This document shows, piece after piece, positions 10,057-28,288 of a DNA stretch of 64,000 nt. This DNA is from Escherichia coli. Lineage in GTDB: Bacteria > Pseudomonadota > Gammaproteobacteria > Enterobacterales > Enterobacteriaceae. The stretch lies in NCBI RefSeq assembly GCF_003790525.1, contig NZ_CP033635.1; one strand, given 5' to 3'. Numbering within the stretch: position 1 is the first letter of the stretch; the number at the start of each line of letters is the position of its first letter. The translations under genes and the position numbers were made by a program. The notes under the pieces are model-generated. The model saw only the letters and a list, made by a program, of their open reading frames with translations, was not told the DNA's origin and did not search any database.

Positions 10057-10285
10057 AAAAACATTTTTTTCTATAAAAAACATTAAATTTACTGATTTAG
10101 ATCAATGTGTGACGTCAATCTACACATAAAGAGGTAGGTTTGTCTTCTTTTTAATCTTTGGCGTATAAAGCCAAAATGTAAATAATAATCAAAATTATAT
10201 TCTGAATTAAAATAAATACGCAGGTTTTTTACCTGCGTTTTGTGCTATTTATAGTTAATTAAATTGATGTTGTCAAAATGGGTCA
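10011..10285. promoter_or_regulatory. Candidate invertible promoter switch (ipuS-like)
   Basis: 7-bp inverted repeat TGACCCA (10011-10017) / TGGGTCA (10279-10285), each followed by TGTAAACC; segment lies between recombinase and regulator and contains an intrinsic-terminator hairpin. Confidence 0.4.
10219..10241 (+). terminator. Hairpin plus T-run inside the candidate switch
   Basis: CGCAGGT-TTTTT-ACCTGCG followed by TTTT; A-rich upstream, so potentially bidirectional. Confidence 0.45.
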
Positions 10286-10373
10286 TTTTGTAAACCTGTG
10301 CCTCAAGGTTTGTCTCCCCCCGGTGTGCAAAGCAAAAGGAAATTGGGAAAGGGGATAACAGGAAATTGATTGC

Positions 10374-10994: not shown

Positions 10995-11018
10995 TGTACG
11001 TTCAAGAGTATTAGTGTT

Positions 11019-14000: not shown

Positions 14001-17000
14001 GGGGCAAAACAGGCCGGCTCTTTGCTGATGAAAACCTCCGGGACAGGCAGCCGTGGTATCTGGGCCACAGGGAAAGGGAGCAATGTCCTGGCTGATGCTG
14101 GCAGTGATTTCCAGATCCTGGGCGCTCAGGCTCAGGGATTATATGTAACTGGTGGTGCGACAGCGACGCTGAAACAGGGGGCATCAGTTAACCTTGTAGG
14201 GGATGGCGCTGTTGTCGCGGAAGTTGACGGAAATGAATACGCTCTGGATGGCAGTATTACACAAACGAATACTGGCTCGGTTATTACCAATGAGGCAGAT
14301 ATCTCTTCGCCGCTGAATAATGCCAAGGGCTTTATTACGCGTAATCAGGGACTGTTGATTAACAGCGGCAACATTGATTTCACTACCGGTACAGATAATA
14401 TCGGCGTCTGGGTTGATAATGGTCGTTTTGAAAATACAGGAAGCCGTATAGCGGTCAATGGCGTTGCATTATTTGTTGAAGGTGAACACGCTCAGATTAC
14501 CAGCACGGGAGGGGATATCGTCGCTGTGGATGGTGAGGCTGCCATTAAGCTGGGGGCGGGCGCGTCACTGAACCTGGCAGGGAGTGGCCTGGGAACGATC
14601 GAAGGTCAGAAAAATGCGCATGGCATCCTGCTGGATACAGGGGCTGTGGGGCTGGTTATTGATGGTGCGAAAATCAATGTTAATGCTGCAGGTGCGGTCG
14701 GTCACGGGATTGAGAACCGTGCAGAAATTGAAGGCATTCAGTTAACCAATACGACTGAAATTAATGTGGCTGATGGCATTGGTGTGCGAACTTCTGCTTC
14801 TCTGGCCAAGACCAACAGCGGCACTATTAATGTAGACGGCAGTGGAATTGCACTGGCGTTCCAGAAAGCTGACGGAAGTGAAACCGATAATAACCTGGAT
14901 ATGTCTGACTCCGGCGGATTAGTCATTAATCTGAAAGGCACGGGCGGCACGGGTATTTTCGCCAACACTAAAGATGGTGCTGTCGTGAAGAGTGGTGCAA
15001 GTGTCAATGTTACACAGGCCGATGGCGGTTCCGCTCTGGTGGTTAACAATGCGGCCAGTGAAGTGGTTCAGAGCGGTAATCTCATCTCTGCTTCTCTGAG
15101 TCATGCCGTAGTGGATGCTTCAAAAGCACAGTCCTTTACCAATAAAGGTCAGATTAAAGCTGCGTCCGCCACCGGGACTGCAATGGCGTTTGATGACGCC
15201 GTGAATACCACCGTACTGAATGACAGCGGTGCTGAAATTCAGGGGGTTGTGGCTCTGAACGGCGGTGATAACACATTCACCAATAAAGGCAGTATTACCG
15301 GAACCGTCAGTGCAAAAGAGGGTAACAATACATTTTTATTTGATGATGGCAGCATACTGACAGGAGAAGTGGCTGCAGGAAATGGCAATAACAATGTAAC
15401 GCTCAATGGTAAGGCTCATGTTGATAAGGTTACTGCCGGTACCGGGAAGAACACCTTCACCATTAAAGGCGAAGGGGCAACCTGGAACCTGCTGGATGGC
15501 GGGCAGGGAGATTCTGATTCCCTGATTTTTGATAACGCCATTCATACGCTGGATTCTGCTGTAAAACTACGGAATTTTGAACATGTCGGGCTGAAGAACA
15601 GTTCGCTTGTCACTCTGAAGGAAGCTCTTGTGCTGACCGATGGGGGGACCGGCCCGGGTTCCGTCGATATTGAATCGGGCAGCGAACTGGCCATTATTCC
15701 CGCAGTTGCAGGCAACTTTACCTTTGATCCACTGTTAACAGGCAAAGGAACACTGTCTGCCCGTCTTGATGCCGACACATCTGCTTTTGAATTCAGCCAT
15801 AACGTCGGGGATCAATTTGCCGGAACTCTGAAGCTGGGTACCAGTAGCTTTGCTCTGGAAGGGCTGAATACGAGCGGGTTAACCCATGCAATGCTGATGT
15901 CTGAAACCGGGAATATCACAACGGTTGGCTCCGGTGTTCAGCAGATTGGCGGTCTTGGGTTCAATGGCGGAACGCTGATTTTTGGTTCCGTTATGCCGGG
16001 CGATACCATTGCCAGCAACAGTATTGAAACCTCTGCTGCAGGTACGCTGGATATCCGGGGGAAAGGCACAATTCAGGTCACCATGCCAGATGAAGTGATT
16101 AATGATATTCCGGCTGTTGATACCCGTAAGAATTTGCTGGAGCAGGATGATGCGCAGACCCTGGTCACACTGGTGAATGCAGCGGGTACCGTCACCGGTA
16201 CTGGCGGGCAACTGCAACTGGTGGATGAAAACGGGCAGGCTATTTCTCACAGTCAGACGTTTGATGTCACTCAGGGCGGTGAAGTTGTAGCTCAGGGAAA
16301 TTATGACTATAAGCTGCTGGGAAGCTCCGACGGTGTTAAAGGTGACGGACTGTACATAGGCTATGGGCTGAAGTCGCTGGATTTACAGGGAACCGGTGAT
16401 AAAGCGCTGGTGCTGACACCGAGAGCGAATGCCCAGGGACTGCAGACAGATCTTGGTGCACAGTTAACGGGGGCAGGGGATCTGGCCATCGAAGCTGCGG
16501 GGCAGGTTGTCACACTGTCTAACGGCGGTAATAACTACACCGGGGATACGCTGGTGCGCAGCGGCACACTGCAGATGGCAAATGATAATGTGCTTGGCGC
16601 TACAGGTAGCCTGAACGTTGCCAGCAATGCCGTCTTCAGAACAGACGGATACAGCCAGACGGTGGGTGCACTGCAGACAGAAACGGGAGCGCACATTCAG
16701 CTTGATAGCGGTAGTGTACTCACGGTCAGCGGCACGCAGCGTCAGCCGGGCGATGATAATGGTGGCATCATTGAAAACAATGTGCTGACCGGAGACGGTA
16801 CGCTGGCTGTCACGGGCAGCAATCTGACGGTACATGGCACCAATATCGGGTTCACCGGTAATGTCAGCCTTACCCGGGGTTCGCTGGTTGAAATGAACGG
16901 CGCACAGGGGCTGGGAAGCCAGGGCTCCATCAGCTTTGAAAGCCTTAATGATCGCCTGGCGATTGATATCGCCGACGGTAGCGGAGTCAGCAGTAACCTG

Positions 17001-18932
17001 AGTAAATCGCTTTCCGGAAAAGGTTCAGTGGGCATACTGAACACCACTGATCTGACACTTTCCGGAGATAACCGTAATTTCAGCGGTGAATTCCGTGTGC
17101 AGAAAGATGCTGCTCTGCGGGCTTCAGATGAAAAACACCTGGGCACCGGGCTGATTGACAGTGATGGTGTCACCTGGCTTACCGCCAGTGGAAACTGGTT
17201 ACTGAAGAATGATATTACTGGCTCCGGCGCTCTGGTGAAACAGGGGGCGGGTAATCTGATCATTAATCATGAGCTGACTTATACCGGTGATACCACGGTT
17301 GAGAATGGCGTTCTGATTGTCGGTGATGATTCAGTCACCCGTGCCGCTGGCGCGACGTTGTCAGGATCCAAAAACATTCATGTTCTTAATGGCGGCACAC
17401 TGAGTGGGCTGGGGACCGTTTCGGGTCAGGTTAATAACCAGGGAACACTGGCATCACTGAATGCTCTCTCAGGTTATGAAACGGCAGAGGCGGGCAATTT
17501 TACCGTTGGCTCACTGACCAATACCGGCGTCATTCGTCTGGCCGGTGGTAAGACAGGAAATACCCTGACCGTAAATGGCGATTACACTGGTGGCGGTACG
17601 TTAATTATCAATACCGTGCTGGGGGATGATACTTCTGCCACTGACAAACTGATTGTCACGGGTAACACCTCCGGTGATACCGGCGTGGTGGTGAATAATG
17701 TCCGGGGCCAGGGGGCTCAGACCGCTGACGGCATTGAGATTGTGCATGTCGGTGGGCAGTCTGACGGTAACTTCAGACTGCAGAACCGTGCGGTGGCAGG
17801 GGCATGGGAATATTTCCTGCATAAAGGTAATGCGGGTGGTACTGACGGTAACTGGTATCTGCGTTCTGAATTGCCGCCAGAACCACAACCGCAGCCGCAG
17901 CCACAACCGCAGCCACAGCCACACCCCACGCCGGATAAACCTGTACAGAAGGTCTATCGTCCGGAAGCGGGCTCTTATATTGCGAACATAGCGGCAGCCA
18001 ACACGCTGTTCAACATCAGAATGCACGATCGTGAGGGGGAAACTTACTATACCGATGTGTTTACTGGTGAGAAGAAAGCAACAAGTATGTGGATGCGTCA
18101 TATCGGCGGTCATAATCGCTGGAAGGACAGCAGTTCACAGCTGAATACGCAAAGTAACCGTTATGTTGTGCAACTGGGTGGCAGCATTGCGCAATGGACT
18201 GACGGTCAGGACCGTCTGCAACTGGGGATTATGGCCGGTTATGGAAATGAGAAGAGTTCCACGACATCCTCGCTTTCGGGATATAAATCTAAAGGTGCGA
18301 TCAATGGATACAGCACCGGTTTATACGGAACGTGGCAGCAGAATGACGGTAATGACAACGGGGCTTATGTCGATACCTGGATCCAGTACGGATGGTTTAA
18401 TAATACCGTTAATGGTGAAAAACTGGCTGCGGAGTCCTGGAAATCCCGTGGATTTACCGGTTCAGTGGAAGCGGGTTATACCTTTAAAGCCGGCGAATTT
18501 ACCGGTAGCCAGGGTAGTCACTATGACTGGTATATTCAGCCGCAGTCCCAGATCACGTGGATGAATGTAAGAGCCAGTGAGCATACGGAGAAGAATGGCA
18601 CGAAAGTTCAGCTCAGCGGAGACGGTAATATCCAGAGTCGTCTGGGCGTCAGAACTTACCTGAAAGGTAAGAGTGCGTCTGATGATAATAAGGCGCATCA
18701 GTTCGAGCCATTTGTGGAAGTTAACTGGATCCATAATACACGGAGCTGGGGTGTCAAAATGGATAATACGGCACTCAGTCAGGACGGAGCTACAAATATT
18801 GCTGAAGTCAAAACGGGTGTTCAGGGTAAATTGTCAGATAACCTGAATGTCTGGGGCAATGTTGGTGTTCAGGCTGGCGATAAAGGGTACAGTGATGCCC
18901 AGGCAATGCTGGGTATTAAATATATATTCTAA
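11019..18932 (+). CDS. Type Va autotransporter adhesin, AIDA-I/UpaE-like, 2637 aa
   Basis: Extended signal peptide motif MNKIYKVIWNHTTQKWDVVSEL; long Gly/Asn/Thr-rich beta-helical passenger; (PQ)n linker; C-terminal beta-barrel ending ...GIKYIF. Confidence 0.9.
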   Translation: MNKIYKVIWNHTTQKWDVVSELTSCRKKCKSTRLGIALSAMVLGGAIAINCNNAMADVILSPDWRPGTNNSGVGAATVSGKTEYITGPNVVQSGGSGLIWMTVEQAILNGYTTGDNLSGLIYVNTGEKTKTITVKDEVTGAYQTLQVFDTDSFSQRDAGTGGNETIPGFSGTADFFNATRFVTANNGGTAILDVGSPAIGNFFKNTQLAVADGEGSSVVWNSVNDFYFQPGATMQGGGVTQKIIDSMKYAGTITDWAGKVHHINSLDDLKQYNQYLIKSLEDKTLSYKQYDAEFNKALIVTKHNYNVDMTAGGRIDSTPYKENVGLLAVLHATNNARAILGKTGKLTGVLPAYGNGGGIVATNGGTGVNEGVIDAIGTEMIAYQDSTIVNDGTLFVWDNNDKYALQAEGMVAGSNGSSAINNGVINIRPFKNAFAPEGINTAIVVSNGGMATNKGTINITADASTNDNNGKTRGVNVGAGGSFINSAFGSINVGIAEDKTATHSAVGSVAIEVQNGANKVVNEGTIFLGRGAQGNYGILAKDAGSVDVVNKGTITIDGYDSDAPALNVGMLANNSSGMKNSGIINVNGLNSTGLQVINAGQLNSDGTINVGGEGISSGFRNYGAWVEGARSNVNVSGKINLSGTGAVGVFAKDGGSLTLSGNGAVLFGSSDQIGFYVYGKDSAIHNTGSGVMDVSTENSTLFRIASGATFQGTADASSALTASGKNSYALIATGKSDGGVASTVTSGGMTINLTGEGATATLIEGGAQGTIESNAIINMDNASAIAGIADGNGYDISGKLINPKDKTTLLTAGAQLSSTQDKVTGYIARNGATLNNTGNIIFTGKNTVGVRVEEGAVGTNSGNITVQDGGVGLIANATQDVTTINNSGNLVLKGGDNANRTTGIKASGTTTTVNMTAGTISLQGQGAIGVEASNKGTVNLDGSAVPNFASDGSGITDQIAFRIIGDGATIKTNIAPGTLLDASGERSVLFRIEDGAKQAGSLLMKTSGTGSRGIWATGKGSNVLADAGSDFQILGAQAQGLYVTGGATATLKQGASVNLVGDGAVVAEVDGNEYALDGSITQTNTGSVITNEADISSPLNNAKGFITRNQGLLINSGNIDFTTGTDNIGVWVDNGRFENTGSRIAVNGVALFVEGEHAQITSTGGDIVAVDGEAAIKLGAGASLNLAGSGLGTIEGQKNAHGILLDTGAVGLVIDGAKINVNAAGAVGHGIENRAEIEGIQLTNTTEINVADGIGVRTSASLAKTNSGTINVDGSGIALAFQKADGSETDNNLDMSDSGGLVINLKGTGGTGIFANTKDGAVVKSGASVNVTQADGGSALVVNNAASEVVQSGNLISASLSHAVVDASKAQSFTNKGQIKAASATGTAMAFDDAVNTTVLNDSGAEIQGVVALNGGDNTFTNKGSITGTVSAKEGNNTFLFDDGSILTGEVAAGNGNNNVTLNGKAHVDKVTAGTGKNTFTIKGEGATWNLLDGGQGDSDSLIFDNAIHTLDSAVKLRNFEHVGLKNSSLVTLKEALVLTDGGTGPGSVDIESGSELAIIPAVAGNFTFDPLLTGKGTLSARLDADTSAFEFSHNVGDQFAGTLKLGTSSFALEGLNTSGLTHAMLMSETGNITTVGSGVQQIGGLGFNGGTLIFGSVMPGDTIASNSIETSAAGTLDIRGKGTIQVTMPDEVINDIPAVDTRKNLLEQDDAQTLVTLVNAAGTVTGTGGQLQLVDENGQAISHSQTFDVTQGGEVVAQGNYDYKLLGSSDGVKGDGLYIGYGLKSLDLQGTGDKALVLTPRANAQGLQTDLGAQLTGAGDLAIEAAGQVVTLSNGGNNYTGDTLVRSGTLQMANDNVLGATGSLNVASNAVFRTDGYSQTVGALQTETGAHIQLDSGSVLTVSGTQRQPGDDNGGIIENNVLTGDGTLAVTGSNLTVHGTNIGFTGNVSLTRGSLVEMNGAQGLGSQGSISFESLNDRLAIDIADGSGVSSNLSKSLSGKGSVGILNTTDLTLSGDNRNFSGEFRVQKDAALRASDEKHLGTGLIDSDGVTWLTASGNWLLKNDITGSGALVKQGAGNLIINHELTYTGDTTVENGVLIVGDDSVTRAAGATLSGSKNIHVLNGGTLSGLGTVSGQVNNQGTLASLNALSGYETAEAGNFTVGSLTNTGVIRLAGGKTGNTLTVNGDYTGGGTLIINTVLGDDTSATDKLIVTGNTSGDTGVVVNNVRGQGAQTADGIEIVHVGGQSDGNFRLQNRAVAGAWEYFLHKGNAGGTDGNWYLRSELPPEPQPQPQPQPQPQPHPTPDKPVQKVYRPEAGSYIANIAAANTLFNIRMHDREGETYYTDVFTGEKKATSMWMRHIGGHNRWKDSSSQLNTQSNRYVVQLGGSIAQWTDGQDRLQLGIMAGYGNEKSSTTSSLSGYKSKGAINGYSTGLYGTWQQNDGNDNGAYVDTWIQYGWFNNTVNGEKLAAESWKSRGFTGSVEAGYTFKAGEFTGSQGSHYDWYIQPQSQITWMNVRASEHTEKNGTKVQLSGDGNIQSRLGVRTYLKGKSASDDNKAHQFEPFVEVNWIHNTRSWGVKMDNTALSQDGATNIAEVKTGVQGKLSDNLNVWGNVGVQAGDKGYSDAQAMLGIKYIF
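17874..17933 (+). repeat. Pro-Gln dipeptide repeat linker (CCGCAG/CCACAA units)
   Basis: PPEPQPQPQPQPQPQPHPTP in the translation; tandem 6-nt units in the DNA. Confidence 0.85.
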
Positions 18933-18939
18933 TCACACA

Positions 18940-18965
18940 GTGGCAGGAGGGGACCTCCTGCCACC
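18940..18965 (+). terminator. Strong hairpin 3' of the autotransporter
   Basis: TGGCAGGAGG-GGA-CCTCCTGCCA perfect 10-bp stem just after the stop; no clear T-run, so the terminator call is tentative. Confidence 0.35.
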
Positions 18966-18979
18966 TCAGGGTTGTCATA

Positions 18980-19510
18980 ATGAGTTCTGTAATGAAATTT
19001 TCTGTTGTTAATGCAGTAGTGCTGCTGTTGCTGATTGTACTTACTGGTGTTTTTTATATGAAAAAGTCAAAAGAAATTGCAGTTGTTAATATCGATGCTA
19101 TTTATAATCAGTCTGCCGCCGGAGACATGGCCAGAAAACATCTGAATGAGGTTAAGAGTATTCTTGAAAAAGGATATGAGGATGCGCAAAAAGTATTCGC
19201 AGATAACGCGAATAAAGAGGCGCTGCTTCTTGATGCCAGACAAAAACTGGAACGACAATATGTTATTGAGGAAAATAGCGCAAAAATGGTGTTATCCCGT
19301 GCGATAGATAATGCTATAGGCACATGGAGAAAAGACAATCCTAAAAATATTGCCGTATTGTCTTCAGGTGTTGTGCTTGCGCATAACGAGTCAGCTGATA
19401 TCACCAAAGAAGTCATGACTCTGGTTGAAAAAGAAAATCTGGTTTTTAATAAATTACCCAAAGTGGAAGTGCACAATAAGAATGAAGAGAAACCAGAACA
19501 AAGTAAGTAA
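18980..19510 (+). CDS. Skp/OmpH-like periplasmic chaperone paralog
   Basis: 176-aa ORF with signal/TM segment; IAVVNIDAIYNQSAAG and NIAVLSSGVVLAHNESADITKEVMTLVEK resemble Skp IAIVNMGSLFQQVAQ and [29 protein letters not shown] from memory. Confidence 0.55.
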   Translation: MSSVMKFSVVNAVVLLLLIVLTGVFYMKKSKEIAVVNIDAIYNQSAAGDMARKHLNEVKSILEKGYEDAQKVFADNANKEALLLDARQKLERQYVIEENSAKMVLSRAIDNAIGTWRKDNPKNIAVLSSGVVLAHNESADITKEVMTLVEKENLVFNKLPKVEVHNKNEEKPEQSK

Positions 19511-19947
19511 TCACTAGATTCTGACGATTTCCAGAAGGGAGATTCAGCAGGCCAGCATCTGTAATCATTCAGATTTTCTGGCTTGCTGCTAAATATGGTT
19601 GCTGAGAAAAATAGCAGTCCAGTAATTTATTCAGATTACTGAATATAATAATTTTTCAGGAACGGTTATGCTGAAGGTAGTATGTTTAATCGACACAATT
19701 ATTTGCTGTGTCTAATATGAGGTGACATTTTTATGATCACTGACCAGCAAGACTGACCCGTATTGATTAGCCTGATTATTGGCAACTTATTGGGGTAGTC
19801 ATTTTGACATCGAATGGGGGAGGTTTCCAGTTAAGTTCACGAATGCATGATGATTTGCGTTCACATATCGAAGTGCTGGTTGACTATACTAAGGATTTTA
19901 AGATAACTCACTGATTGTAAGTGGGTTATTGCGAGGGGGATGATAAA

Positions 19948-19966
19948 TGGTGTCCCTGCAGAAATC
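19948..19966. repeat. Degenerate copy of argW 3' end (putative distal att of the satellite)
   Basis: TGGTGTCCCTGCAGAAATC versus the argW 3' end TGGTGTCCCCTGCAGGAATC at 32636-32655 (17 of 20); about 12.7 kb from the tRNA. Confidence 0.5.
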
Positions 19967-20183
19967 ATCTTAATTATTATTATGTTGATTTATATGTAGT
20001 TTATTTTTGATTTTTTGTTTTTGTACCCGTTTTGTGCCCGTTTTATTCGATTCCCAATTTAAACTTCGATTCTAGAAAGGTGAGTAGGGGAGGTTATCAT
20101 TTCATGTATCATTATTGTAGACACAGAATAATTACTCGCCTATCCTCACTGTAGACACACAATAGATACAGGAGTTAACCCAC

Positions 20184-20432
20184 ATGCGCACACAGGTTGT
20201 ATTGCAAAAATGGGGTAATAGCATTGCCCTTCGACTAACGGGAAACCTTAAAACCGTTCCGGGGTTTTCAGTGGGTGATATCGTCAACGTTGAAATTAGT
20301 GAAAAGGGGCTTTTTGTAGAAAAGCCTGCACGCCGTCGCCTGAGTGAAGCCGAATTACTCGCCGGGATAACGCCAGTTACAGCGCACGCGGACGAAATTG
20401 CCACCCCATTCAATGAGGAGGTTGATTACTGA
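20184..20432 (+). CDS. MazE/PemI-family antitoxin (AbrB/SpoVT fold)
   Basis: 82-aa ORF MRTQVVLQKWGNSIALRL...; stop overlaps the toxin start. Confidence 0.75.
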   Translation: MRTQVVLQKWGNSIALRLTGNLKTVPGFSVGDIVNVEISEKGLFVEKPARRRLSEAELLAGITPVTAHADEIATPFNEEVDY

Positions 20433-20776
20433 TGTTTGTACCTAAGCGTGGTGATATTTGCTGGCTGGATTTTGAGCCGCAGAAAGGAAAAGAGAGCGGA
20501 AAGTATCGCCCGGCACTCATACTATCCCATGAGCAATATAACCGACTCACCGGGCTTGTCATATGCTGCCCCATAAGTACGAGCATACGAAATGCTCCCA
20601 CAGAAGTTCCGGTAACAAATCTGGACGCCCCCAGCGTGGTAGCAACCACACTCATTCAAACCCTTGACTGGCGTCAGCGGAAAGCGCGCTTAATCACAGA
20701 GGCAGAAGATGGGGTATTTAATGATGTGCTTGAAAGAGTCATTACCCTGATTGGTGGAGAGCATCTGCTTAAGTAA
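20432..20776 (+). CDS. MazF/PemK-family toxin (endoribonuclease)
   Basis: 114-aa ORF MFVPKRGDICWLDFEPQKGKESGKYRPALILS..., PemK/MazF-like N-terminus; coupled to the upstream antitoxin. Confidence 0.75.
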   Translation: MFVPKRGDICWLDFEPQKGKESGKYRPALILSHEQYNRLTGLVICCPISTSIRNAPTEVPVTNLDAPSVVATTLIQTLDWRQRKARLITEAEDGVFNDVLERVITLIGGEHLLK

Positions 20777-20819
20777 AAGGAGGGCTGAGAAGCCCTCAAC
20801 GTTACCAGAAATTTCCTTG

Positions 20820-22091
20820 CTATTCTTTCCAGTCAATCCCATCCAGTAAGCACCCTGCCTCATATTGCCCAACAACCCAGTCAAGATTGCAGGACTCATA
20901 GAAAGCGAGGCGATTATACTGTGGCTCGTTTTTTACCAGACCACGAACGGAGCCGCGTTGCCAGTACAGGCACAGATTGGCAAGAGGTGTGATCAGCACA
21001 GCATTGTCCGGGAAAAATGGAACGGTCACAGCCGGAAGATTCCCCAGCACGGGCTTTTTAATGATTTCCTCGTTAAGCAAAATTTCCTGATTCATCTGCG
21101 ATGGATCAAGACGGTTTATCAAAGGCCATTGTTTACGGACCAGAGTATTGTGACTGCATACGGCCACAATGCCTTCCTGCCACTGTTCATCAATCATGGA
21201 TTGCCAGGCATCCAGAACAAGTGCATCTATTGTATGGTGTGTACCGCGTGTATTGCTTGTCGGCGATGAAACAGAAAGACCGCTGATAACCCTTCCCGCT
21301 GCTTCGTTTCGAAACTTCTGCAACCATCCGACGCCGCAATCGTCACGGCCCGGATATGTTTCAGGATCAGATTGATCGGCATAGTGTGTGCCGTTAAAAC
21401 CAATCTGAATTAAATCCAGCCATTTCCGGCGTTCAAAAGCGGCACGGGCGCTTCCTTCAAGACCATTTGCGGACGCGTGAGCATCGACATTGTCGTAGCT
21501 CAACGCAAAATCAAAATTAACCTGCTCGCAGCGGTAGCCTCTTGAAACCAGTGAATGCGCCTGTAGTGGCGAACGGCGCTCGTGAGGTGGCGATGTACGT
21601 GCCAACGGCCGGGAAGCGTCTACCAGCACAACCTGACCTGATATATCCGTAACAGGCACGGGGGTTATTTCAGCAAGGAAATTTGCCTGCCATCCACTGG
21701 CAAGCGTTGCACTCTGGCGGGGAACGGGTTCAACTTCTGACGAATAGCGCGCAGTATCACCGGAAAAGTGCAAATCCTTCGGATGCTTTCCGGTTATCGA
21801 CTCGATAGCGCAATTGAAAACCATCTGAGACTGTTGATTTCGTTGTGATACAACATAATCAGCAGTGCAATTATAACACTCAATGCCGTCGTTATTACCC
21901 CCACCGCTTGCAGTATGCAGGGTGTGAAGCTCAAGCTCACGCTCCAGTTTTTGATATTCATTGTCCAGCGCGCGACGCGTCTCATCGCTTATGCTTGCTG
22001 TGTTTGCTTTCAGGCGATTCCGGGACATTAACTCCCTGAGTCGGCTCACTATATCAGCGCCGTGCAAATGTGAAATATTCAGACCGCCCAT
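20820..22091 (-). CDS. Hypothetical protein B of a two-gene cargo operon (about 423 aa), no recognisable family
   Basis: Start taken at the internal ATG (MGGLNISHLHG...) that overlaps the upstream gene stop as TAATG; the longer 470-aa ORF is read as an artefactual extension. Confidence 0.6.
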   Translation of the reverse strand: MGGLNISHLHGADIVSRLRELMSRNRLKANTASISDETRRALDNEYQKLERELELHTLHTASGGGNNDGIECYNCTADYVVSQRNQQSQMVFNCAIESITGKHPKDLHFSGDTARYSSEVEPVPRQSATLASGWQANFLAEITPVPVTDISGQVVLVDASRPLARTSPPHERRSPLQAHSLVSRGYRCEQVNFDFALSYDNVDAHASANGLEGSARAAFERRKWLDLIQIGFNGTHYADQSDPETYPGRDDCGVGWLQKFRNEAAGRVISGLSVSSPTSNTRGTHHTIDALVLDAWQSMIDEQWQEGIVAVCSHNTLVRKQWPLINRLDPSQMNQEILLNEEIIKKPVLGNLPAVTVPFFPDNAVLITPLANLCLYWQRGSVRGLVKNEPQYNRLAFYESCNLDWVVGQYEAGCLLDGIDWKE

Positions 22092-22801
22092 TACTGCCAC
22101 CCCCGGCAGAGTTCTCTGCCCTCCGCAAGGTCGCGCATTTTTTCTGGATTCTGTCGCGCCGCGCTCCATTGTACAGGTGAAGGGGCGTTCCTGATTGCGT
22201 GGCTTACCGAATCCGGCAGTTTCTCCGGGCAATAACGAAGCGGATTGGAGGCATCGCTCTCAATATCGTTAATCCGGCCGCGAATCAGCCCGACACTTTC
22301 AACAATATCTGCCATTTTCAGTGTTTCACATATTTTCTTTTCTGCGTTATACAGCGGCTGGCCAAGCAGCTCACATAAACCACGAATCAATAGCAGAGCA
22401 GGGGTCAGCTCGTTAATCAGTCCGGGAAGTGCTTTTGCAAATATCTCTGCCCGCAACTTATTATCAATGCTTTGGTAAGCACAGCCAGCCTCTGCCGCGT
22501 TATAACGACACTCCAGTAACCTGATGCGCGCCTCATCATGCAATACCCGCAGACGCTCAAGATTTTCTCGCGCCACACCCGCCTGAATGCATAATTTTGC
22601 GGAGGCTTCCGTTTTTGCGCCCAGCGCAGACAGGATTGAGTTCTGCCAGTCACGTTCGAGAGACTCCAGCTCCCCTTTCGTCTGTTCGATAGTCGCTTCC
22701 AGATTGGTGATTAATGATTCCTGTTCGCTGAGTTTTGCCATGGCCGTATCAAACTGTGCTTTACATGCCTGATGCCTGGCGCTTGCCTGAGTTATATCCA
22801 T
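22091..22801 (-). CDS. Hypothetical protein A of the two-gene cargo operon (236 aa), predicted coiled-coil N-terminal half
   Basis: Heptad-like, charge-rich N-terminus (KLSEQESLITNLEATIEQTKGELESLERD); no known motif recognised; first gene of the operon. Confidence 0.6.
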   Translation of the reverse strand: MDITQASARHQACKAQFDTAMAKLSEQESLITNLEATIEQTKGELESLERDWQNSILSALGAKTEASAKLCIQAGVARENLERLRVLHDEARIRLLECRYNAAEAGCAYQSIDNKLRAEIFAKALPGLINELTPALLLIRGLCELLGQPLYNAEKKICETLKMADIVESVGLIRGRINDIESDASNPLRYCPEKLPDSVSHAIRNAPSPVQWSAARQNPEKMRDLAEGRELCRGWQ

Positions 22802-22965
22802 TGTTTGCTCCTGTAATACATTTTTTACTTACGCCCATTTTTTCCATATTGCGTAATACATTCCAGCCGATTTTGTTCTCGTAATACGCTCACAATACTG
22901 TTGTATTACGCTTTCTTATATCGCGGGTGTTAAATCCCGGTATAAGCAATCAGGGAGGCAACACG

Positions 22966-23199
22966 ATGAAAAAACAAAAGAAAATGCGATACGTATTACG
23001 CTGTATTCGTATCCCGCACGAAATCGACCATAAAATAAATCAGATATGTAAGGACAGAGAGATGAACTACTCCCAGTGCGTCAGAATGTTTATCTGTCAG
23101 GGAATTAAGGCCGGGGAAACGCAGGAAGAAGACCGCAACGGGCGCAATGTAGCGGGAGATGTGTGGGCCTGGGCAAATGACCAGAACTACACGACGTAA
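22966..23199 (+). CDS. Small hypothetical protein, possibly a ribbon-helix-helix regulator
   Basis: Start taken at MKKQKKMRYVL...; divergent from the cargo operon; beta-strand then two helices by eye. Confidence 0.35.
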   Translation: MKKQKKMRYVLRCIRIPHEIDHKINQICKDREMNYSQCVRMFICQGIKAGETQEEDRNGRNVAGDVWAWANDQNYTT

Positions 23200-23249
23200 T
23201 ACAGAAATAACGTAGCCGGTTACACTCGCTGGCTGCGTTATACAAATCA

Positions 23250-23432
23250 CTATGAAGTTTTCAACTTCCTGCGCTTAGTGATGCGTACAAACGACTCAAG
23301 CGTACAAAAACAAGCCCCACACTCAATATTACTGCACTGGTAATACGTTTTGTAGATGTTTTGTTCGTGCTCTTCCAACGAACGACTACGGGTTCGGGCT
23401 GAAGCGCCACAGGCCGGGCAAGGGAAAGACAT
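23250..23432 (-). CDS. Ogr/Delta-family zinc-finger late-gene activator
   Basis: 60-aa ORF MSFPCPACGASARTRSRSL...YYQCSNIECGACFCTLESFVRIT aligns with P2 Ogr (MFHCPLCQHAAHARTSRYI...YHQCQNVNCSATFITYESVQRYIV). Confidence 0.8.
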   Translation of the reverse strand: MSFPCPACGASARTRSRSLEEHEQNIYKTYYQCSNIECGACFCTLESFVRITKRRKLKTS

Positions 23433-23793
23433 ATCACGCTCCTCTTACTGGTGTGAAATTTGACCTATTATATCTCCTGCCGCCCCCTCTGGCTGTATCA
23501 AATAAACCCGCAGCAGTCGCCGCGTATTACGGACGGACGCACCGTTCCCATGCTCACTCGTCACATTCCCCGTATCAGTTCTCTCTTACCGTAAGAACGG
23601 CTCTGGCTGGCGATAAAACTAACCCGGTCGGGCATTCCCGCAGTCTTTAGAGAAAATGTAATTTACCCCCTGAAACGTGGGCTGTTCCCCCGTCACCTGC
23701 GCGCGAAAAACTCACCGTTTTTTGTGCACGCACGAAATCGCCCTCCGGGTGCGCCAGTACTGGGCCGGATGGGCAAAAAGTTACTCTAAAAAA

Positions 23794-24611: not shown

Positions 24612-25616
24612 TTACTCTGCTGGCTCTTTTTCTTCGGTGATCACTATGTTGGCTACCGGGTTAAATCTCATGGCATCTGCCAGATAATCCGGTGCAAAAT
24701 GTGCGTATGCCATAGTCTGCTGAATTGTCGCATGCCCAAGGATTTTTTGTAGCGCAAGAATGTTGCCACCGTTCATCACAAAGTGACTGGCGAATGTATG
24801 CCGCAATACATGCGCAGCCTGCCCCCTCGGTAAATCGGGTTTTATTTTTTTTAATGCCCGGCAAAACTCTCTGTACTTCACATCAAACAGTCGCCCGGTT
24901 TCTTTTGTTTTTACGGCATCGCATATTTCCTGCGACACAGGCACCGTTCTTTTTCTACCGTTTTTGGTTTCCAGAAACGTTATTCTGTTATGAACTATTT
25001 GCTCTCCATGCAATCTGCTGGCCTCACTCCAGCGGGCTCCGGTACAAAGACACAAGAGCGCAACCCTTCGTTGATCTCCATTCAGCCCGTCAAGCAACAA
25101 TGTGACCTCGTTTTTTGATAAAAAGGCCATTTCCCGCTGCTTTACATAAAGAACAGGAATACCACGAACCGGATGCTCTGCATCCCACAAACCGATCTTT
25201 TTCAGGGCTGTAAACATCCCCGATAATCTGTTCATGTATCTGTTTGCTGAGGACGGCTTTAATCCTTCCGCAATTTTCTGCGATCGCCATGCAATGATTT
25301 TTAATTTGTTGAGTTCTGCCGCAAACATGTCAGCTCCAAGCTCATTAATAATTTTGCCAAGTTGCTGTTTATCCGTGTTTGCCTTTCGCCTGTGCTGACC
25401 GTGATAGACCCACCACAATTCCAGTAAATCGCTAAGCGTTCTCCGGTCGCGATAGCCCTGTATAAACTCGCGCTTTTCGGCGTTCGCTATGATGTACCGT
25501 TCAGTTGCTGTAGCTATCGATTTTTTGTCAAATATTCTTCTGATGCGCTTCCCTTTACGTCCGCATGGCCTGATATCGAGCAGCCACCGCCCATCATGCA
25601 TCTTTCTGATCGGCAT
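24612..25616 (-). CDS. Tyrosine recombinase (phage integrase family, XerC/D-like)
   Basis: Catalytic region ARWSEASRL ... HVLRHTFASHFVMNGGNILALQKILGHATIQQTMAYAHF; ATG at 25616 with GGAGG upstream, directly after the primase stop. Confidence 0.7.
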   Translation of the reverse strand: MPIRKMHDGRWLLDIRPCGRKGKRIRRIFDKKSIATATERYIIANAEKREFIQGYRDRRTLSDLLELWWVYHGQHRRKANTDKQQLGKIINELGADMFAAELNKLKIIAWRSQKIAEGLKPSSANRYMNRLSGMFTALKKIGLWDAEHPVRGIPVLYVKQREMAFLSKNEVTLLLDGLNGDQRRVALLCLCTGARWSEASRLHGEQIVHNRITFLETKNGRKRTVPVSQEICDAVKTKETGRLFDVKYREFCRALKKIKPDLPRGQAAHVLRHTFASHFVMNGGNILALQKILGHATIQQTMAYAHFAPDYLADAMRFNPVANIVITEEKEPAE

Positions 25617-25618
25617 GT

Positions 25619-28288
25619 TTAACTCCCCTCCTTGTAACTGAATATCCGGCATTTCAGTACTTCCGGCTCTCTGGCCTCGGCGACCCCTCTTCCGGCGTTT
25701 GCCTGTCTGGAGACCTCACTACGAATGGTTTTGCGGCCTGTCAAAGGTCGGGAACGTCCGGCTGCGAGCAACTCAATCATTTCGCGGTCAGTTCGGATCT
25801 CCACGCGGTGAATAGCGGCAGCCTGTGCCAGTTGCGGAATACTGATAGCAATCCCCTCGCGGCATCCCTTGCCGTAGTGGTTTACACCGTATTTTGTTAT
25901 GCCGTCCAGATAGTCGAACGCCTCCCAGAACGCTATTACTTCCGGCAAGTCATCCGTTACCGCTTTAACTTGTTCCGCTGCCATTCGTTCCAGTTCCTGG
26001 CATGTGGCATTAAGCCATTCATCCGGGATATCAATAACGCATTTCAGCGCCCTGACCAGCGCAATAAGTTGCGCGTGATTTTTGGCAATACGGGGATGGA
26101 GAATATTTTCGCAACCGCAAAGGCGGGTCGTTTCAGGCTCTGAGAGCGCCAGAAACATTTCCATAATTGCCCGTTCACGGCTGACTGCCCGATGAATAAA
26201 CCCTGACACCTTCTCAACGGGGTAGAGTTCCAGTCGTCTCGCCGCCAGCCGGGTATCAGACGAGTGGCGCTTTTTATCGGTATATATGCGAATCAGTCGC
26301 TCAATAATTGCAAGTGAGGCGTTTACCCTGGCATTCTGTGCAATCACGATAGCGCCCTTAAAATCCGGGTCATAGGTGTTGTTATTGTTGGTCTTAACGC
26401 CACGAACGCCGATACCGCCGCCGTTATAGAGGCTTTTCAGGTTATCGAAGTCAAACGCACCTCTTTTTTGCGCATTGCCTCCCCTGTCTGCTTCAATCAG
26501 AACAACAGGTAATCCGGCGACCTGTCCAAAGGTGCGCTTCCAGCCCGCCTCTGATCCTTTGGTTGGATCAACGCCTTCATAGTTGTCACGACCGCACAAC
26601 CGCCAGCAAAAATCAATCAATGTTGATTTACCCGTTCCGGGCTCCCCGGTGACTTCAAGGAAGGGGAAGGATTCTTCTTTATCCCGGATTTGTTCGCTGA
26701 ACAGGGAGCCCAACCAGAAAGCCAGGGTAATAATTCCTTTTTCACCAAAAGCCAGCCAGAGATCTTCCACCCAGGACTCTGTAAACTCATCCGGTTTTTT
26801 GTAGTTAATCTGTAATGTGGGTTTTTCGCTTAATGGTTTTGCGTTTATGCCATCAATTTCAAAATAATCTTCGTCATTGATTTCATAAGTTTTTCCCTTG
26901 TAAACAGCAATATCATTAAACAGCCATGCCCCAATCGCCTTGTTGTATCCGATAAAATCCTGACCAATAACCTCTTTTATTGCGGGAAGGTCATTTTTTA
27001 TTAATGCGTCAAGGTGCGCAGTTGTTCCGGTATAAATGCCGCCTTTTGCCACATGCAACAGGCGTTTTTTAAATTCAGATGCGGATGTCAATTGTCCTGA
27101 TGTAAAGGTGTTTTTCACCGTAGCACCATCCGGGAACGTAACACGGAAGTAATACCATGCTTCATCCGTGTCATTATTTCTAATGTAATAAAGCGGCGCT
27201 GGGTTACAGTTTGCGATTTCTTTTACTGCGCCAGATTCCTTAAGTGCAATTTTGCGCGCTTCATCCTCATCAACACTTCTCTCATTCTTGGCACGCTCTA
27301 CAGCTTTCATATAGCGCTCAATGTCCAGTTTGAACCAGAAAACACGGTTATCAAAAGTAAAATGAAATTCCTTCCGCTCACGAAAGGAAAATATTATTAG
27401 CGCCTTATCTCTCGGAGATTTCGCCAGCAATAAATCACCGTAATGACGGTATCTTTTCACATCATGGCCACGCAGCTTTCCGGCGATGTGTAAATCATTC
27501 CAGTCGCGTTTATTGTTGTTTTTACCTGGCAACGCCGCTGCCGTTCTCCAGCCGTCTTCGGCGCTGCGTTCTGCATGTTTTTTCGCGTAACGCTCACCCG
27601 CACGCCCGTTATCCAGCGCCCACACAATAACCGGACGGGGATTATCCCCGCACAGCTTCGCCAGCTCTTCCAGCGCCTTATCAGGGTAGTTCACGGCAGA
27701 CATGACAGAAACGGCCGCAATGCCATTCTGGTTAAGGCTGATGGCATCAAAGATGCCCTCACAAATCCAGATTTCTTTGGCCTTGCTTAAATCTGCTCCC
27801 GGATAAGCCCACCACAACCCCTTGTAGCTGCCGGAAAAATTCGCCTTGCGCGCGAAGCGTCCCGGTCGGTCTATGATGCGCTCCCACCACACGCCGTCAG
27901 CCAGCGTAAAACGCACAGTAGCGGCCTGTTCGCCGTTTTCCTTGTCCTGGTATCGCTCCTGAGTAAATGCGCCCTTCAGTGGCCCCACAGCAATATTGCG
28001 CGCCTCCTGAAGATAAGCTGCCACCGCTGCATATGGCTCGTCTTTCGTGCTGATATAACGATCTGACCATGATGAAAACACATCCGGGTAAAGTTCTTTG
28101 GTCAGCAGGTCTGTACCGCATTTATTTTCGCGCCCACAGTGTACGATGTACGGCCTTTCAAGGCTGGTAAACAACTCTTTCTTTCCACATTGCGGACAAA
28201 CACCATACCGGAGGTAGTTATTTTCTTCTTTGAAGTTGTAATCACGGATAAGACGGTTAATAATCTCTTTTCTGATGTCAGATTTCAT
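25619..28288 (-). CDS. Primase-helicase (P4 alpha / PICI Pri-Rep-like)
   Basis: N-terminal zinc finger CPQCGKKEL...HCGRENKCG, TOPRIM-like region, Walker A GEPGTGKST; start at the ATG with GGTGGAG SD rather than the upstream GTG. Confidence 0.85.
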   Translation of the reverse strand: MKSDIRKEIINRLIRDYNFKEENNYLRYGVCPQCGKKELFTSLERPYIVHCGRENKCGTDLLTKELYPDVFSSWSDRYISTKDEPYAAVAAYLQEARNIAVGPLKGAFTQERYQDKENGEQAATVRFTLADGVWWERIIDRPGRFARKANFSGSYKGLWWAYPGADLSKAKEIWICEGIFDAISLNQNGIAAVSVMSAVNYPDKALEELAKLCGDNPRPVIVWALDNGRAGERYAKKHAERSAEDGWRTAAALPGKNNNKRDWNDLHIAGKLRGHDVKRYRHYGDLLLAKSPRDKALIIFSFRERKEFHFTFDNRVFWFKLDIERYMKAVERAKNERSVDEDEARKIALKESGAVKEIANCNPAPLYYIRNNDTDEAWYYFRVTFPDGATVKNTFTSGQLTSASEFKKRLLHVAKGGIYTGTTAHLDALIKNDLPAIKEVIGQDFIGYNKAIGAWLFNDIAVYKGKTYEINDEDYFEIDGINAKPLSEKPTLQINYKKPDEFTESWVEDLWLAFGEKGIITLAFWLGSLFSEQIRDKEESFPFLEVTGEPGTGKSTLIDFCWRLCGRDNYEGVDPTKGSEAGWKRTFGQVAGLPVVLIEADRGGNAQKRGAFDFDNLKSLYNGGGIGVRGVKTNNNNTYDPDFKGAIVIAQNARVNASLAIIERLIRIYTDKKRHSSDTRLAARRLELYPVEKVSGFIHRAVSRERAIMEMFLALSEPETTRLCGCENILHPRIAKNHAQLIALVRALKCVIDIPDEWLNATCQELERMAAEQVKAVTDDLPEVIAFWEAFDYLDGITKYGVNHYGKGCREGIAISIPQLAQAAAIHRVEIRTDREMIELLAAGRSRPLTGRKTIRSEVSRQANAGRGVAEAREPEVLKCRIFSYKEGS

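What the first reader, a model, noticed from the sequence alone, without database searches (positions are those of the whole stretch)
20184..20776. MazEF/PemIK-like toxin-antitoxin pair as satellite cargo beside the unknown operon
An overlapping antitoxin (AbrB-fold) and PemK/MazF-like toxin sit directly inside the distal att remnant. They could act as an addiction module for the satellite or as an abortive-infection module, and reinforce the defence-hotspot reading of this end of the element.
Basis: partly seen in the sequence, partly recalled or inferred. Interest (0 to 1): 0.4.

Follow-up and report, generated by a model that had tools for sequence, protein, structure and literature searches.

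The report
MazEF toxin-antitoxin fixed in a satellite
This is an ordinary-looking MazE/MazF toxin-antitoxin gene pair, already annotated as such in public E. coli genomes. The mildly interesting point is that it is a permanent end-piece of one family of phage satellites, not swappable defence cargo.

Summary
Two ORFs (82 aa at 20184-20432, 114 aa at 20432-20776) overlap by one base, and each has a Shine-Dalgarno site. They lie about 215 bp inside a 20-nt copy of the tRNA-Arg (argW) 3' end that marks the far end of a ~12.7 kb phage satellite.

The 114-aa protein is a PemK/MazF-family endoribonuclease (Pfam E 1e-24) and keeps the catalytic Arg and Ser/Thr. The 82-aa protein is a full-length but distant MazE homologue (profile E 1e-5 to E. 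coli MazE).

The pair travels with the satellite. It is present in all 56 E. coli genomes (59 copies) that carry this satellite's late operon, at two different chromosomal sites with different integrases. It sits in the same slot in Salmonella relatives whose capsid-like gene is only 52% identical.

So it is a fixed terminal module, not variable hotspot cargo. It gave no hit to PADLOC defence models. Its nearest relatives are on plasmids (toxin 93% identical).

The most likely role is addiction/stabilisation of the satellite. Abortive infection remains possible but untested.

Novelty is low: a new member of a known kind.

The parts
19947..19966 (.). Distal att copy (attR core) of the satellite: ATGGTGTCCCTGCAGAAATC, an imperfect repeat of the tRNA-Arg 3' end
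   Evidence: Local alignment to 32635-32655 shows one indel and one mismatch. Similarity to strain ETEC1701, which has a different left flank (intS prophage), starts at about 19941.
20019..20040 (+). Two tandem copies of TTTTGT(A/G)CCCG, candidate arm-type integrase sites. They are specific to the argW-type integration module and are not part of the TA cassette.
   Evidence: Read from the sequence. This stretch is shared with the argW-inserted ETEC1701 element but not with the hpt-inserted elements. The function is inferred.
20107..20135 (+). Direct repeat 1 (candidate MazE operator). Contains the -35-like TAGACA at 20118-20123.
   Evidence: the repeat finder family D1: 29 nt, 79% identity, 34-nt spacing. 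The core TGTAGA(C/T)AC is conserved upstream of E. coli, Salmonella, plasmid and Brenneria homologues while surrounding sequence has diverged. Promoter-like site TAGACA-17-TATCCT.
20141..20169 (+). Direct repeat 2 (candidate MazE operator). Begins with the -10-like TATCCT at 20141-20146.
20184..20432 (+). mazE-like antitoxin gene, 82 aa (RefSeq WP_001260304.1: 'AbrB/MazE/SpoVT family DNA-binding domain-containing protein')
   Evidence: ORF. NCBIfam MazE 3.5e-4 and ChpS 4e-3. PDB MazE chains 7d2n_E 8.7e-5 and 1mvf_D 3.3e-4. A profile of 12 homologues hits 1mvf_D/1ub4_C at 1e-5 over residues 6-70. PHROG 4324 at 1.3e-9. RefSeq annotation.
20432..20776 (+). mazF-like toxin gene, 114 aa (RefSeq: 'type II toxin-antitoxin system PemK/MazF family toxin')
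   Evidence: Pfam PF02452 1.2e-24. NCBIfam MazF 1.1e-26, 92.9 bits, below the curated 120. PDB K. pneumoniae MazF 7bye_B 3.7e-20 and E. coli MazF about 1e-17. PHROG 1936 'MazF-like growth inhibitor' 6e-27. R26 and S49 align with the catalytic Arg28/Thr51.
20780..20797 (-). GC-rich hairpin GAGGGCT-TCTC-AGCCCTC between the convergent mazF and capsid-like genes. The T-run is on the minus strand only, so it is mainly the terminator of the satellite late operon.
   Evidence: Terminator scan and sequence.
20820..22091 (-). Neighbour (context): satellite gene for a P2-family major-capsid homologue, convergent with mazF
   Evidence: NCBIfam TIGR01551 4e-39. PHROG 70 'major head protein' 1.5e-77 over residues 119-422. 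RefSeq annotation.
32636..32710 (-). tRNA-Arg (CCT), argW: the proximal attachment site of the satellite
   Evidence: ARAGORN. Integrase, AlpA-type excisionase, primase, second integrase and Ogr/Delta lie between it and the TA pair.

Best explanation
**Identity.** The locus is a type II toxin-antitoxin operon of the MazEF family.

**Shown by sequence and comparison:**
- The downstream 114-aa protein is a PemK/MazF-fold, metal-independent endoribonuclease with its catalytic Arg (R26) and hydroxyl residue (S49) intact.
- The upstream 82-aa protein is a MazE homologue. It has the N-terminal KWGNSxAxRL DNA-binding motif and a conserved acidic C-terminal tail (AHADE...E..Y).
- The genes overlap by one base, so they are presumably co-transcribed and translationally coupled.
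- The cassette lies inside the satellite's att boundary and is present in every copy of this satellite lineage.

**Inferred from the known MazEF mechanism:**
- A MazE dimer binds the two conserved 29-nt repeats that overlap the -35/-10 region and represses the operon.
- Its C-terminal tail threads over the MazF dimer and blocks the RNA-binding groove.
- MazE is labile. When its synthesis stops, MazF is freed, cleaves single-stranded RNA and arrests growth.

**Inferred role.** Because the cassette is fixed at the satellite's end and its closest kin are plasmid modules, its main job is probably to penalise loss of the satellite. Loss could follow excision without reintegration, failure to inherit the plasmid-like replicating form, or deletion. 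That makes it an addiction/stabilisation module. Any anti-phage effect would be a by-product.
For: **Toxin family and active site**
- R26 is nearly invariant and S49 invariant in 21 homologues from Escherichia to Legionella. These residues align with Arg28/Thr51 of K. pneumoniae MazF. Mutating those two residues abolishes RNase activity and toxicity (PMC8086154).

**Antitoxin homology:**

**Selection:** dN/dS is about 0.02 for mazF against the plasmid copy.

**Autoregulation candidate:** the repeats are conserved across homologues that have otherwise diverged, and they overlap a promoter-like site.

**Satellite-borne and fixed**
- 56/56 genomes and 59 copies carry it.
- It occurs at both the argW and hpt-gcd sites with unrelated integrases.
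- It holds the same convergent position in Salmonella satellites, whose capsid-like, 241-aa and delta proteins are only 52%, 34% and 43% identical.
- Within E. coli the TA proteins are the most conserved satellite proteins: 98-100% identity, against 89-98% for the 236-aa protein.

**Plasmid kinship**
- The toxin is 93% identical on 14-15 E. coli plasmids, next to a MobA relaxase.
- The subfamily is common on Vibrio and Aeromonas plasmids.

**Precedent for a TA stabilising an excisable integrated element:** mosAT of SXT (PMC2654960).
Against: - No experiment exists. Toxicity, neutralisation, MazE lability and operator binding are all inferred.
- The antitoxin fails the Pfam PF04014 threshold, and its AlphaFold model is poor (pLDDT 55). 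The AbrB fold therefore rests on sequence homology alone.
- A single-copy chromosomal element is rarely lost, so the benefit of addiction may be small.
- In the circular form the cassette lies between the late operon and the integrase. That is topologically the interval which in P4 holds gop-beta-cII, a probable toxin-antitoxin pair with proven anti-phage activity (PMC9122126).
- In some Salmonella copies a second TA (RelB/ParE) has landed in the same slot. That looks more like a cargo site.
Confidence: 0.55

Rival explanations
1. The pair is an abortive-infection / anti-phage module carried as satellite defence cargo. Infection by a non-helper phage shuts off host transcription, MazE decays, and MazF destroys RNA so that the phage burst fails. 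This protects sibling cells that carry the satellite.
For: - Satellites of P2 do carry defence genes next to the end of their late operon. P4's own occupant there (gop-beta-cII) behaves as a TA and protects against lambda and P1 (PMC9122126).
- E. coli MazEF has been linked to phage exclusion in the literature (papers listed, e.g. PMC12151602 for RNA phages).
- The slot accepts another TA in Salmonella.
- PHROGs files the toxin with phage-borne 'MazF-like growth inhibitor' morons.
Against: - There is no turnover at the locus: 56/56 genomes carry the same pair, and Salmonella relatives do too. P4 hotspots show more than 300 gene arrangements.
- There is no PADLOC match.
- No close homologue exists in 50,697 phage records; the best is 44% identity.
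- The nearest relatives are plasmid maintenance-type modules.
Confidence: 0.25
2. The pair is a tool in the satellite-helper conflict. When a P2-like helper activates the Ogr/Delta-dependent late operon, transcription converging on mazF-mazE (or helper-induced shut-off) lowers MazE. The freed MazF then trims helper or host mRNAs to favour the satellite.
For: - The convergent arrangement with the late operon and the 43-nt gap are strictly conserved from E. coli to Salmonella.
- The only terminator between the two operons faces the late operon.
- The fixed presence suggests a role in the satellite's own life cycle.
Against: - This is pure inference; there are no expression data.
- Satellite genes show no depletion of ACA or related motifs relative to synonymous shuffles. 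The z scores run from -1.6 to +2.1, and the only strong depletion is TAG (z -7), which I took for general compositional bias.
- In one Salmonella locus (L007) the pair is not adjacent to the late operon.
Confidence: 0.07
3. The pair is an anti-addiction module. The chromosomal satellite-borne MazE neutralises the 93%-identical plasmid MazF, so the host can lose the plasmid without dying.
For: - Strain GF60, the closest match to the window, carries both the satellite copy and the plasmid copy (pGF60-A).
- The toxins are 93% identical.
Against: - The antitoxin tails that should contact the toxin differ: ADEIATPFNEEVDY versus ADEAATLLDKESEF. This suggests insulation rather than cross-protection.
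- Only 15 plasmid copies were found, against 59 chromosomal ones.
- The pair is also fixed in Salmonella satellites.
Confidence: 0.05
4. The pair is a decaying, non-functional remnant that merely hitch-hikes at the satellite's end.
For: - TA loci often persist as orphans.
- In Brenneria the pair sits among transposase debris.
- In some Salmonella copies mazE is truncated.
Against: - Both ORFs are intact in all inspected E. coli copies at 98-100% amino-acid identity.
- dN/dS is about 0.02.
- The catalytic residues, both Shine-Dalgarno sites and the promoter repeats are conserved.
Confidence: 0.03

Closest known systems
MazE/MazF of Klebsiella pneumoniae plasmid pKPN7 (PDB 7BYE) and chromosomal MazEF of E. 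coli (PDB 1UB4, 1MVF)
   Same: - Gene order is the same: antitoxin first, with overlapping genes.
- Sizes are similar: 82 and 114 aa, against 82 and 111-112 aa.
- The toxin has the PemK/MazF fold, and the Arg plus Thr/Ser catalytic pair is present.
- The antitoxin has the KWGNSxAxR N-terminal motif and a C-terminal toxin-binding tail.
   Different: - It is not the same orthologue. It scores 92.9 bits against the NCBIfam MazF equivalog, below the curated cut-off of 120.
- It is about 43% identical to plasmid 'mazF' genes of Klebsiella and Yersinia.
- It has Ser rather than Thr at the second catalytic position.
- The antitoxin is too divergent for Pfam PF04014.
- The cleavage specificity is unknown.
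PemI/PemK (Kis/Kid) of plasmid R100/R1 and ChpBI/ChpBK of E. coli
   Same: Same toxin superfamily, and the same logic of plasmid addiction.
   Different: They are more distant than MazF. Kid (1m1f) scores E 3.9e-7, against 1e-17 to 4e-20 for MazF chains. The ChpB equivalog scores 51 bits against a cut-off of 129.
Plasmid-borne MazEF homologue next to MobA relaxase on E. coli plasmids such as pGF60-A
   Same: It belongs to the same subfamily. The toxin is 93% identical and the antitoxin 76% identical. The upstream TGTAGA(C/T)AC repeats are the same.
   Different: - It is on plasmids, not in a satellite.
- Synonymous sites are nearly saturated (pS 0.71-0.79), so the split is old.
- The antitoxin C-terminal tail differs.
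gop-beta-cII in the psu-int hotspot of satellite P4
   Same: It is a probable toxin-antitoxin pair carried by a P2-dependent satellite, in the interval between the end of the late operon and the integrase.
   Different: - The proteins are unrelated.
- The P4 locus is hypervariable and lies next to cos. Here the locus is invariant, and no P2/P4-type cos was found in the window with up to 3 mismatches.
- This satellite gave no PHROGs match to psu or sid.
mosAT of the SXT integrative conjugative element
   Same: It is a TA carried by an integrated, excisable element that promotes the element's maintenance (PMC2654960).
   Different: The toxin family and the type of element are different. Regulation of mosAT by excision is documented there and is unknown here.

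Membership tests
MazEF / PemIK type II toxin-antitoxin | Toxin matches the PemK/MazF profile over its full length | tested here: met
   PF02452 at E 1.2e-24, model positions 1-107 of 109. 28 solved MazF/Kid/EndoA chains hit at E <= 1e-3.
MazEF / PemIK type II toxin-antitoxin | Catalytic Arg and Thr/Ser of the MazF active site are present | tested here: met
   R26 and S49 align with Arg28/Thr51 of K. pneumoniae MazF (residues defined in PMC8086154). S49 is invariant and R26 is >=90% conserved in 21 homologues.
MazEF / PemIK type II toxin-antitoxin | Small antitoxin gene immediately upstream, co-directional and overlapping or abutting | tested here: met
   82-aa ORF with a 1-nt overlap (TGATG). 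Both ORFs have Shine-Dalgarno sites.
MazEF / PemIK type II toxin-antitoxin | Antitoxin has the AbrB/SpoVT/MazE swapped-hairpin DNA-binding domain | tested here: inconclusive
   - Sequence homology to solved MazE chains is significant but modest: 8.7e-5 for the single sequence and 1e-5 for the profile.
- NCBIfam MazE gives 3.5e-4, far below its cut-off.
- Pfam PF04014 is not significant.
- The AlphaFold model gives a beta-beta / beta-beta / helix / disordered-tail pattern, but pLDDT is 55, so no fold search was run.
MazEF / PemIK type II toxin-antitoxin | Membership in the E. coli MazF, ChpBK or Agrobacterium MazF orthologous groups (NCBIfam equivalogs) | tested here: not met
   Scores of 92.9, 51.3 and 36.3 bits fall below cut-offs of 120, 129 and 150. 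It is a separate subfamily within the family.
MazEF / PemIK type II toxin-antitoxin | Toxin arrests growth, and antitoxin binds and neutralises it | not testable with these tools
   Indirect support only: strong purifying selection on both genes and conservation of the antitoxin tail motif AHADE.
MazEF / PemIK type II toxin-antitoxin | Autoregulated promoter with antitoxin operator sites | tested here: inconclusive
   Two 29-nt direct repeats overlap a promoter-like site. Their core is conserved in divergent homologues. Binding was not tested.
Satellite / prophage defence-hotspot cargo (as defined for P4 and P2 by Rousset et al. 2022) | Gene content of the locus varies between closely related elements | tested here: not met
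   The same pair occurs in 56/56 E. coli genomes and 59 copies, in Escherichia sp. (L014) and in Salmonella relatives. The only variation seen is a RelB/ParE insertion in some Salmonella copies.
Satellite / prophage defence-hotspot cargo (as defined for P4 and P2 by Rousset et al. 2022) | Locus lies between psu and int, adjacent to cos | tested here: inconclusive
   In the circularised element the pair lies between the late-operon end and int1. However, PHROGs gave no psu or sid match, and no P2/P4 cos was found with <=3 mismatches.
Satellite / prophage defence-hotspot cargo (as defined for P4 and P2 by Rousset et al. 2022) | Proteins match known defence-system models, or protect against phage | tested here: not met
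   There is no PADLOC hit for either protein. Protection itself is not testable here.
Cargo of the integrated satellite (inside its att boundaries) | Lies between the att repeats and moves with the element to other integration sites | tested here: met
   The att copies are at 19947-19966 and 32635-32655. An identical cassette with the same satellite core lies between hpt and gcd under a different integrase.

The most novel reading that the evidence does not exclude
The MazEF pair is an obligatory core gene of an undescribed family of P2-dependent satellites, those that encode their own P2-type capsid homologue instead of Psu/Sid. It is wired to the helper: activation of the convergent Ogr/Delta-dependent late operon, or helper-induced shut-off, releases MazF. 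MazF then reshapes the transcriptome in favour of satellite packaging. This would be a TA used as a life-cycle switch rather than for addiction or defence.
Probability: 0.07. Interest if true: 0.6.

Novelty: new member of a known kind. Interest (0 to 1): 0.22.

Why it matters
By itself it matters little. It is a standard MazEF-type module that RefSeq already labels correctly.

Two points are of modest value. First, it is a clean example of a toxin-antitoxin pair that is a fixed, terminal component of a phage satellite, across two integration sites and two genera. That argues that not every small module at a satellite's end is interchangeable defence cargo. It also offers a tractable system for asking whether satellites, like plasmids and ICEs, use addiction to resist loss.

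Second, the satellite itself may deserve more attention than the pair. It has an Ogr/Delta gene plus a P2-type capsid homologue, and PHROGs gave no Psu or Sid match.

Tried and rejected
1. **AlphaFold2 on the antitoxin.** Run with a 12-sequence alignment, it gave pLDDT 54.7. That is too poor for a fold search, so none was run.
2. **Pfam scan of the antitoxin and its homologues.** No significant PF04014 hit.
3. **PADLOC.** No hit for either protein.
4. **Search for the P2/P4 cos core** GGCGAGGCGGGGAAAGCAC with up to 3 mismatches. No match in the window. A loosely similar stretch at 20079-20097 was judged by eye to match about 11 of 19 positions. It is not conserved between the argW-type and hpt-type elements, so it was rejected.
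5. **Motif depletion in satellite genes.** Tested ACA and related MazF-type motifs, plus all 3- to 5-mers, against synonymous-codon shuffles. There was no specific signal. The strongest depletion was TAG (z -7), which I took for general compositional bias rather than a MazF motif.
6. **Scan of one genome per species for relatives of the capsid-like protein.**
   - It found one close relative (Escherichia sp., with the TA present).
   - It also found six hits at 35-37% identity that match none of the other satellite or TA proteins used as queries. These are presumably true P2-like phage capsid genes.
   - The scan therefore added little about variation in the slot.
7. **Phage records.** No close homologue of the toxin; the best is 44% identity in a Pantoea phage.
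8. **Literature.** No paper mentions WP_000497967. The P4-satellite papers checked do not mention MazEF or a capsid homologue.
9. **Minus-strand ORFs over the locus** (93 aa at 20132..20413, 81 aa at 20410..20655). They were set aside, because the plus-strand frames carry the homology and the purifying selection.

Full report
**1. The observation**

The ORF list gives 20184..20432 (+, 82 aa) and 20432..20776 (+, 114 aa), exactly as reported. The sequence shows the stop of the first ORF and the start of the second sharing one base (TGATG). AGGAG lies 9 nt before the first ATG and GAGGAGG 10 nt before the second.

These are genuine coding frames. Compared with a plasmid homologue, the toxin gene has dN 0.043 against pS 0.71. 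The antitoxin gene has dN 0.16 with saturated synonymous sites.

**2. Where it sits**

The window is E. coli chromosome; its closest match is strain GF60. A single tRNA gene, tRNA-Arg(CCT) (argW), lies at 32636-32710 on the minus strand.

From there leftwards the genes are:
- an arm-type integrase;
- an AlpA-type excisionase;
- an Icd-like/repressor protein;
- small ORFs;
- an 897-aa primase;
- a second tyrosine recombinase;
- a 90-aa ORF;
- an Ogr/Delta zinc-finger protein;
- a 236-aa protein with no PHROGs match;
- a 423-aa homologue of the P2 major capsid protein.

The TA pair follows, convergent with the capsid-like gene. A hairpin at 20780-20797 lies between them, and its T-run serves the minus strand.

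A 20-nt imperfect copy of the tRNA 3' end, ATGGTGTCCCTGCAGAAATC, lies at 19947-19966. The element is therefore about 12.7 kb, and the pair is its last gene cassette, 218 bp inside the distal att copy. To the left lie the UpaE autotransporter and an OmpH-family gene, which belong to a different island.

**3. Is it really part of the satellite?**

Yes. In strain ETEC1701 the same element sits at argW but abuts an intS prophage instead of the UpaE island, and similarity begins at the att copy. In ETEC6334, 2-1 and 600468 the same satellite core lies between hpt and gcd, with the same pair at its end, under an unrelated integrase (24% identity).

An alignment of the junctions shows where the shared sequence starts: about window 20100, some 85 bp upstream of the antitoxin ATG. 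Everything to the left is specific to the integration module.

**4. What the proteins are**

*Toxin*
- Pfam PemK_toxin scores 1.2e-24 over essentially the whole model.
- The NCBIfam MazF equivalog scores 1.1e-26, but 92.9 bits is under the curated 120. The ChpB and Agrobacterium MazF equivalogs score lower still.
- The best solved structures are K. pneumoniae MazF (7bye_B, 3.7e-20) and MazF 7d28 (1.1e-19). E. coli MazF scores about 1e-17 and Kid 3.9e-7.
- In K. pneumoniae MazF, Arg28 and Thr51 are required for RNase activity and toxicity (PMC8086154). In the HMMER alignment these fall on R26 and S49 of the query.
- In 21 homologues spanning Escherichia, Salmonella, Yersinia, Photorhabdus, Vibrio, Legionella and others, S49 is invariant and R26 nearly so.

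It is thus a distinct MazF subfamily with an intact active site.

*Antitoxin*
- Single-sequence evidence is weak but consistent: NCBIfam MazE 3.5e-4 and ChpS 4e-3, and PDB MazE chains from 8.7e-5 to 3.6e-4.
- A profile of 12 homologues improves the match to E. coli MazE to 1e-5 over residues 6-70.
- Pfam PF04014 never reaches significance.
- The AlphaFold model is unreliable, with pLDDT 55.
- The invariant LQKWGNSIALRL motif and the conserved AHADE tail fit a MazE-type protein with an N-terminal DNA-binding domain and a C-terminal toxin-binding tail.

RefSeq already annotates the two genes as 'AbrB/MazE/SpoVT family DNA-binding domain-containing protein' and 'type II toxin-antitoxin system PemK/MazF family toxin'.

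**5. Regulation**

Two 29-nt direct repeats (20107-20135 and 20141-20169, 34-nt spacing) overlap a promoter-like TAGACA-17-TATCCT. Their core, TGTAGA(C/T)AC, recurs twice at similar spacing upstream of the Salmonella, plasmid and Brenneria homologues, although the surrounding sequence has diverged. This is a phylogenetic footprint of an operator. Binding by MazE is inferred.

**6. Distribution: fixed, not variable**

- Among 5,426 complete E. coli genomes, the satellite late operon occurs in 56 (60 BLAST places, one of them a split copy).
- The TA occurs at >=95% identity in 59 chromosomal places.
- A query spanning the TA-capsid junction is contiguous in 56 of 56 genomes and 59 places.
- A sensitive blastn found no more distant versions of the late operon in E. 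coli.
- In Salmonella enterica, satellites with a 52%-identical capsid-like gene, a 34%-identical 241-aa protein and a 43%-identical Delta carry the homologous pair (toxin 78%, antitoxin 71%). It has the same position and orientation. Synonymous sites are saturated, so the association is old or has been repeatedly restored.
- Within E. coli the TA proteins are the most conserved proteins of the element.

This pattern is the opposite of a defence hotspot, which is recognised by turnover; the P4 psu-int locus has more than 300 arrangements (PMC9122126). Neither protein matches a PADLOC model.

One sign of plasticity exists. In two Salmonella loci a RelB/ParE cassette has replaced the 5' half of mazE, leaving a 40-codon ORF for the C-terminal tail.

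**7. Relatives elsewhere**

- The nearest non-satellite relatives are on E. coli plasmids, beside a MobA relaxase. The toxin is 93% and the antitoxin 76% identical, with a different antitoxin tail. One such plasmid is in GF60 itself.
- The subfamily is frequent on Vibrio, Aeromonas, Marinobacter and Xenorhabdus plasmids.
- It is absent from phage records at close range.
- In Brenneria the pair sits among transposase and CcdA debris.

**8. Mechanism and role**

The molecular mechanism follows from family membership. MazF is an RNA endonuclease, it is neutralised by MazE, and the operon is autoregulated. This is well supported but untested here.

For the biological role I favour addiction/stabilisation of the satellite, for three reasons:
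- the cassette is invariant;
- it sits at the end of the element;
- its kin are plasmid modules.

There is precedent in mosAT of SXT (PMC2654960).

Abortive infection is the main rival. In the circularised element the pair lies between the late operon and the integrase, which is topologically where P4 keeps gop-beta-cII, a probable TA with anti-phage activity.

A helper-linked switch through convergent transcription is conceivable but has no support. Satellite genes show no depletion of ACA-type motifs.

**9. Verdict**

The 'defence hotspot' reading is not supported by the distribution. The finding is a new member of a known kind and of low interest in itself.

Noticed in passing
window 20820-23432 (minus strand): The satellite's late operon is Ogr/Delta (60 aa), a 236-aa protein with no PHROGs match, and a 423-aa homologue of the P2 major capsid protein. 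The capsid homologue hits PHROG 70 at 1.5e-77 over residues 119-422 and has a ~118-aa N-terminal extension. PHROGs gave no Psu or Sid match. This operon is found in 56 of 5,426 E. coli genomes and, at 52% identity, in Salmonella. I found no description of a P2-dependent satellite that encodes its own capsid homologue in the P4 papers I checked.
   Followed up: partly
L009 7274-8001 and L012 7274-8001 (Salmonella enterica): A RelB/ParE toxin-antitoxin cassette on the opposite strand has replaced the 5' half of mazE. Only a TTG-initiated 40-codon ORF for the MazE C-terminal tail remains, upstream of an intact mazF. Either the tail alone suffices to neutralise MazF, or the toxin is silenced in some other way.
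   Followed up: partly
L006 6001-6593 (plasmid pGF60-A) versus window 20184-20776: The strain closest to the window carries a second, plasmid-borne copy of this TA subfamily beside a MobA relaxase. The toxin is 93% identical, but the antitoxin is only 76% identical, with a different C-terminal tail. Synonymous sites are near saturation. This raises a question of cross-talk versus insulation.
   Followed up: partly
window 24612-25652 and 31195-32499 (minus strand); L002-L005: The satellite carries two tyrosine recombinases. The tRNA-proximal one is swapped wholesale between the argW-type and hpt-gcd-type elements (24% identity). The internal one varies from 52% to 99% identity between otherwise ~95%-identical elements.
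   Followed up: no
L001 23948-26255 versus window ~23500-23650: Strain GF60 has an IS21-family element (istA/istB) inserted between the Ogr/Delta gene and the 90-aa ORF. The window lacks it: its tRNA lies about 2.6 kb closer than the GF60 coordinates predict, which is roughly the size of the insertion. The window therefore comes from a close relative of GF60, not from GF60 itself.
   Followed up: no
L012 1-7059 (Salmonella enterica): The Salmonella satellite directly abuts a P2/186-like prophage end (GPA replication protein, CI repressor, Fil, CP76, integrase). This is consistent with a P2-like helper living next door.
   Followed up: no
L007 7753-16345 (Salmonella enterica): Here the TA pair (toxin 83% identical) is followed directly by the 92-aa ORF, the internal integrase and the primase. 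A Phage_cap_P2 gene lies only beyond the early genes. This is either a rearranged element or two elements in tandem.
   Followed up: no
window 20019-20040: Tandem TTTTGT(A/G)CCCG repeats lie between the att copy and the TA cassette. They are probably arm-type binding sites for the argW-type integrase, and they are absent from the hpt-type elements.
   Followed up: no
window ~8100-19510: Left of the satellite lies the UpaE island. By correspondence with GF60 it contains the invertases ipuA/ipuB, a LuxR-type regulator, the 2,637-aa phase-variable autotransporter UpaE (11019-18932) and an OmpH-family gene (18980-19510). In other strains an intS (CPS-53-type) prophage occupies this flank instead.
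   Followed up: no
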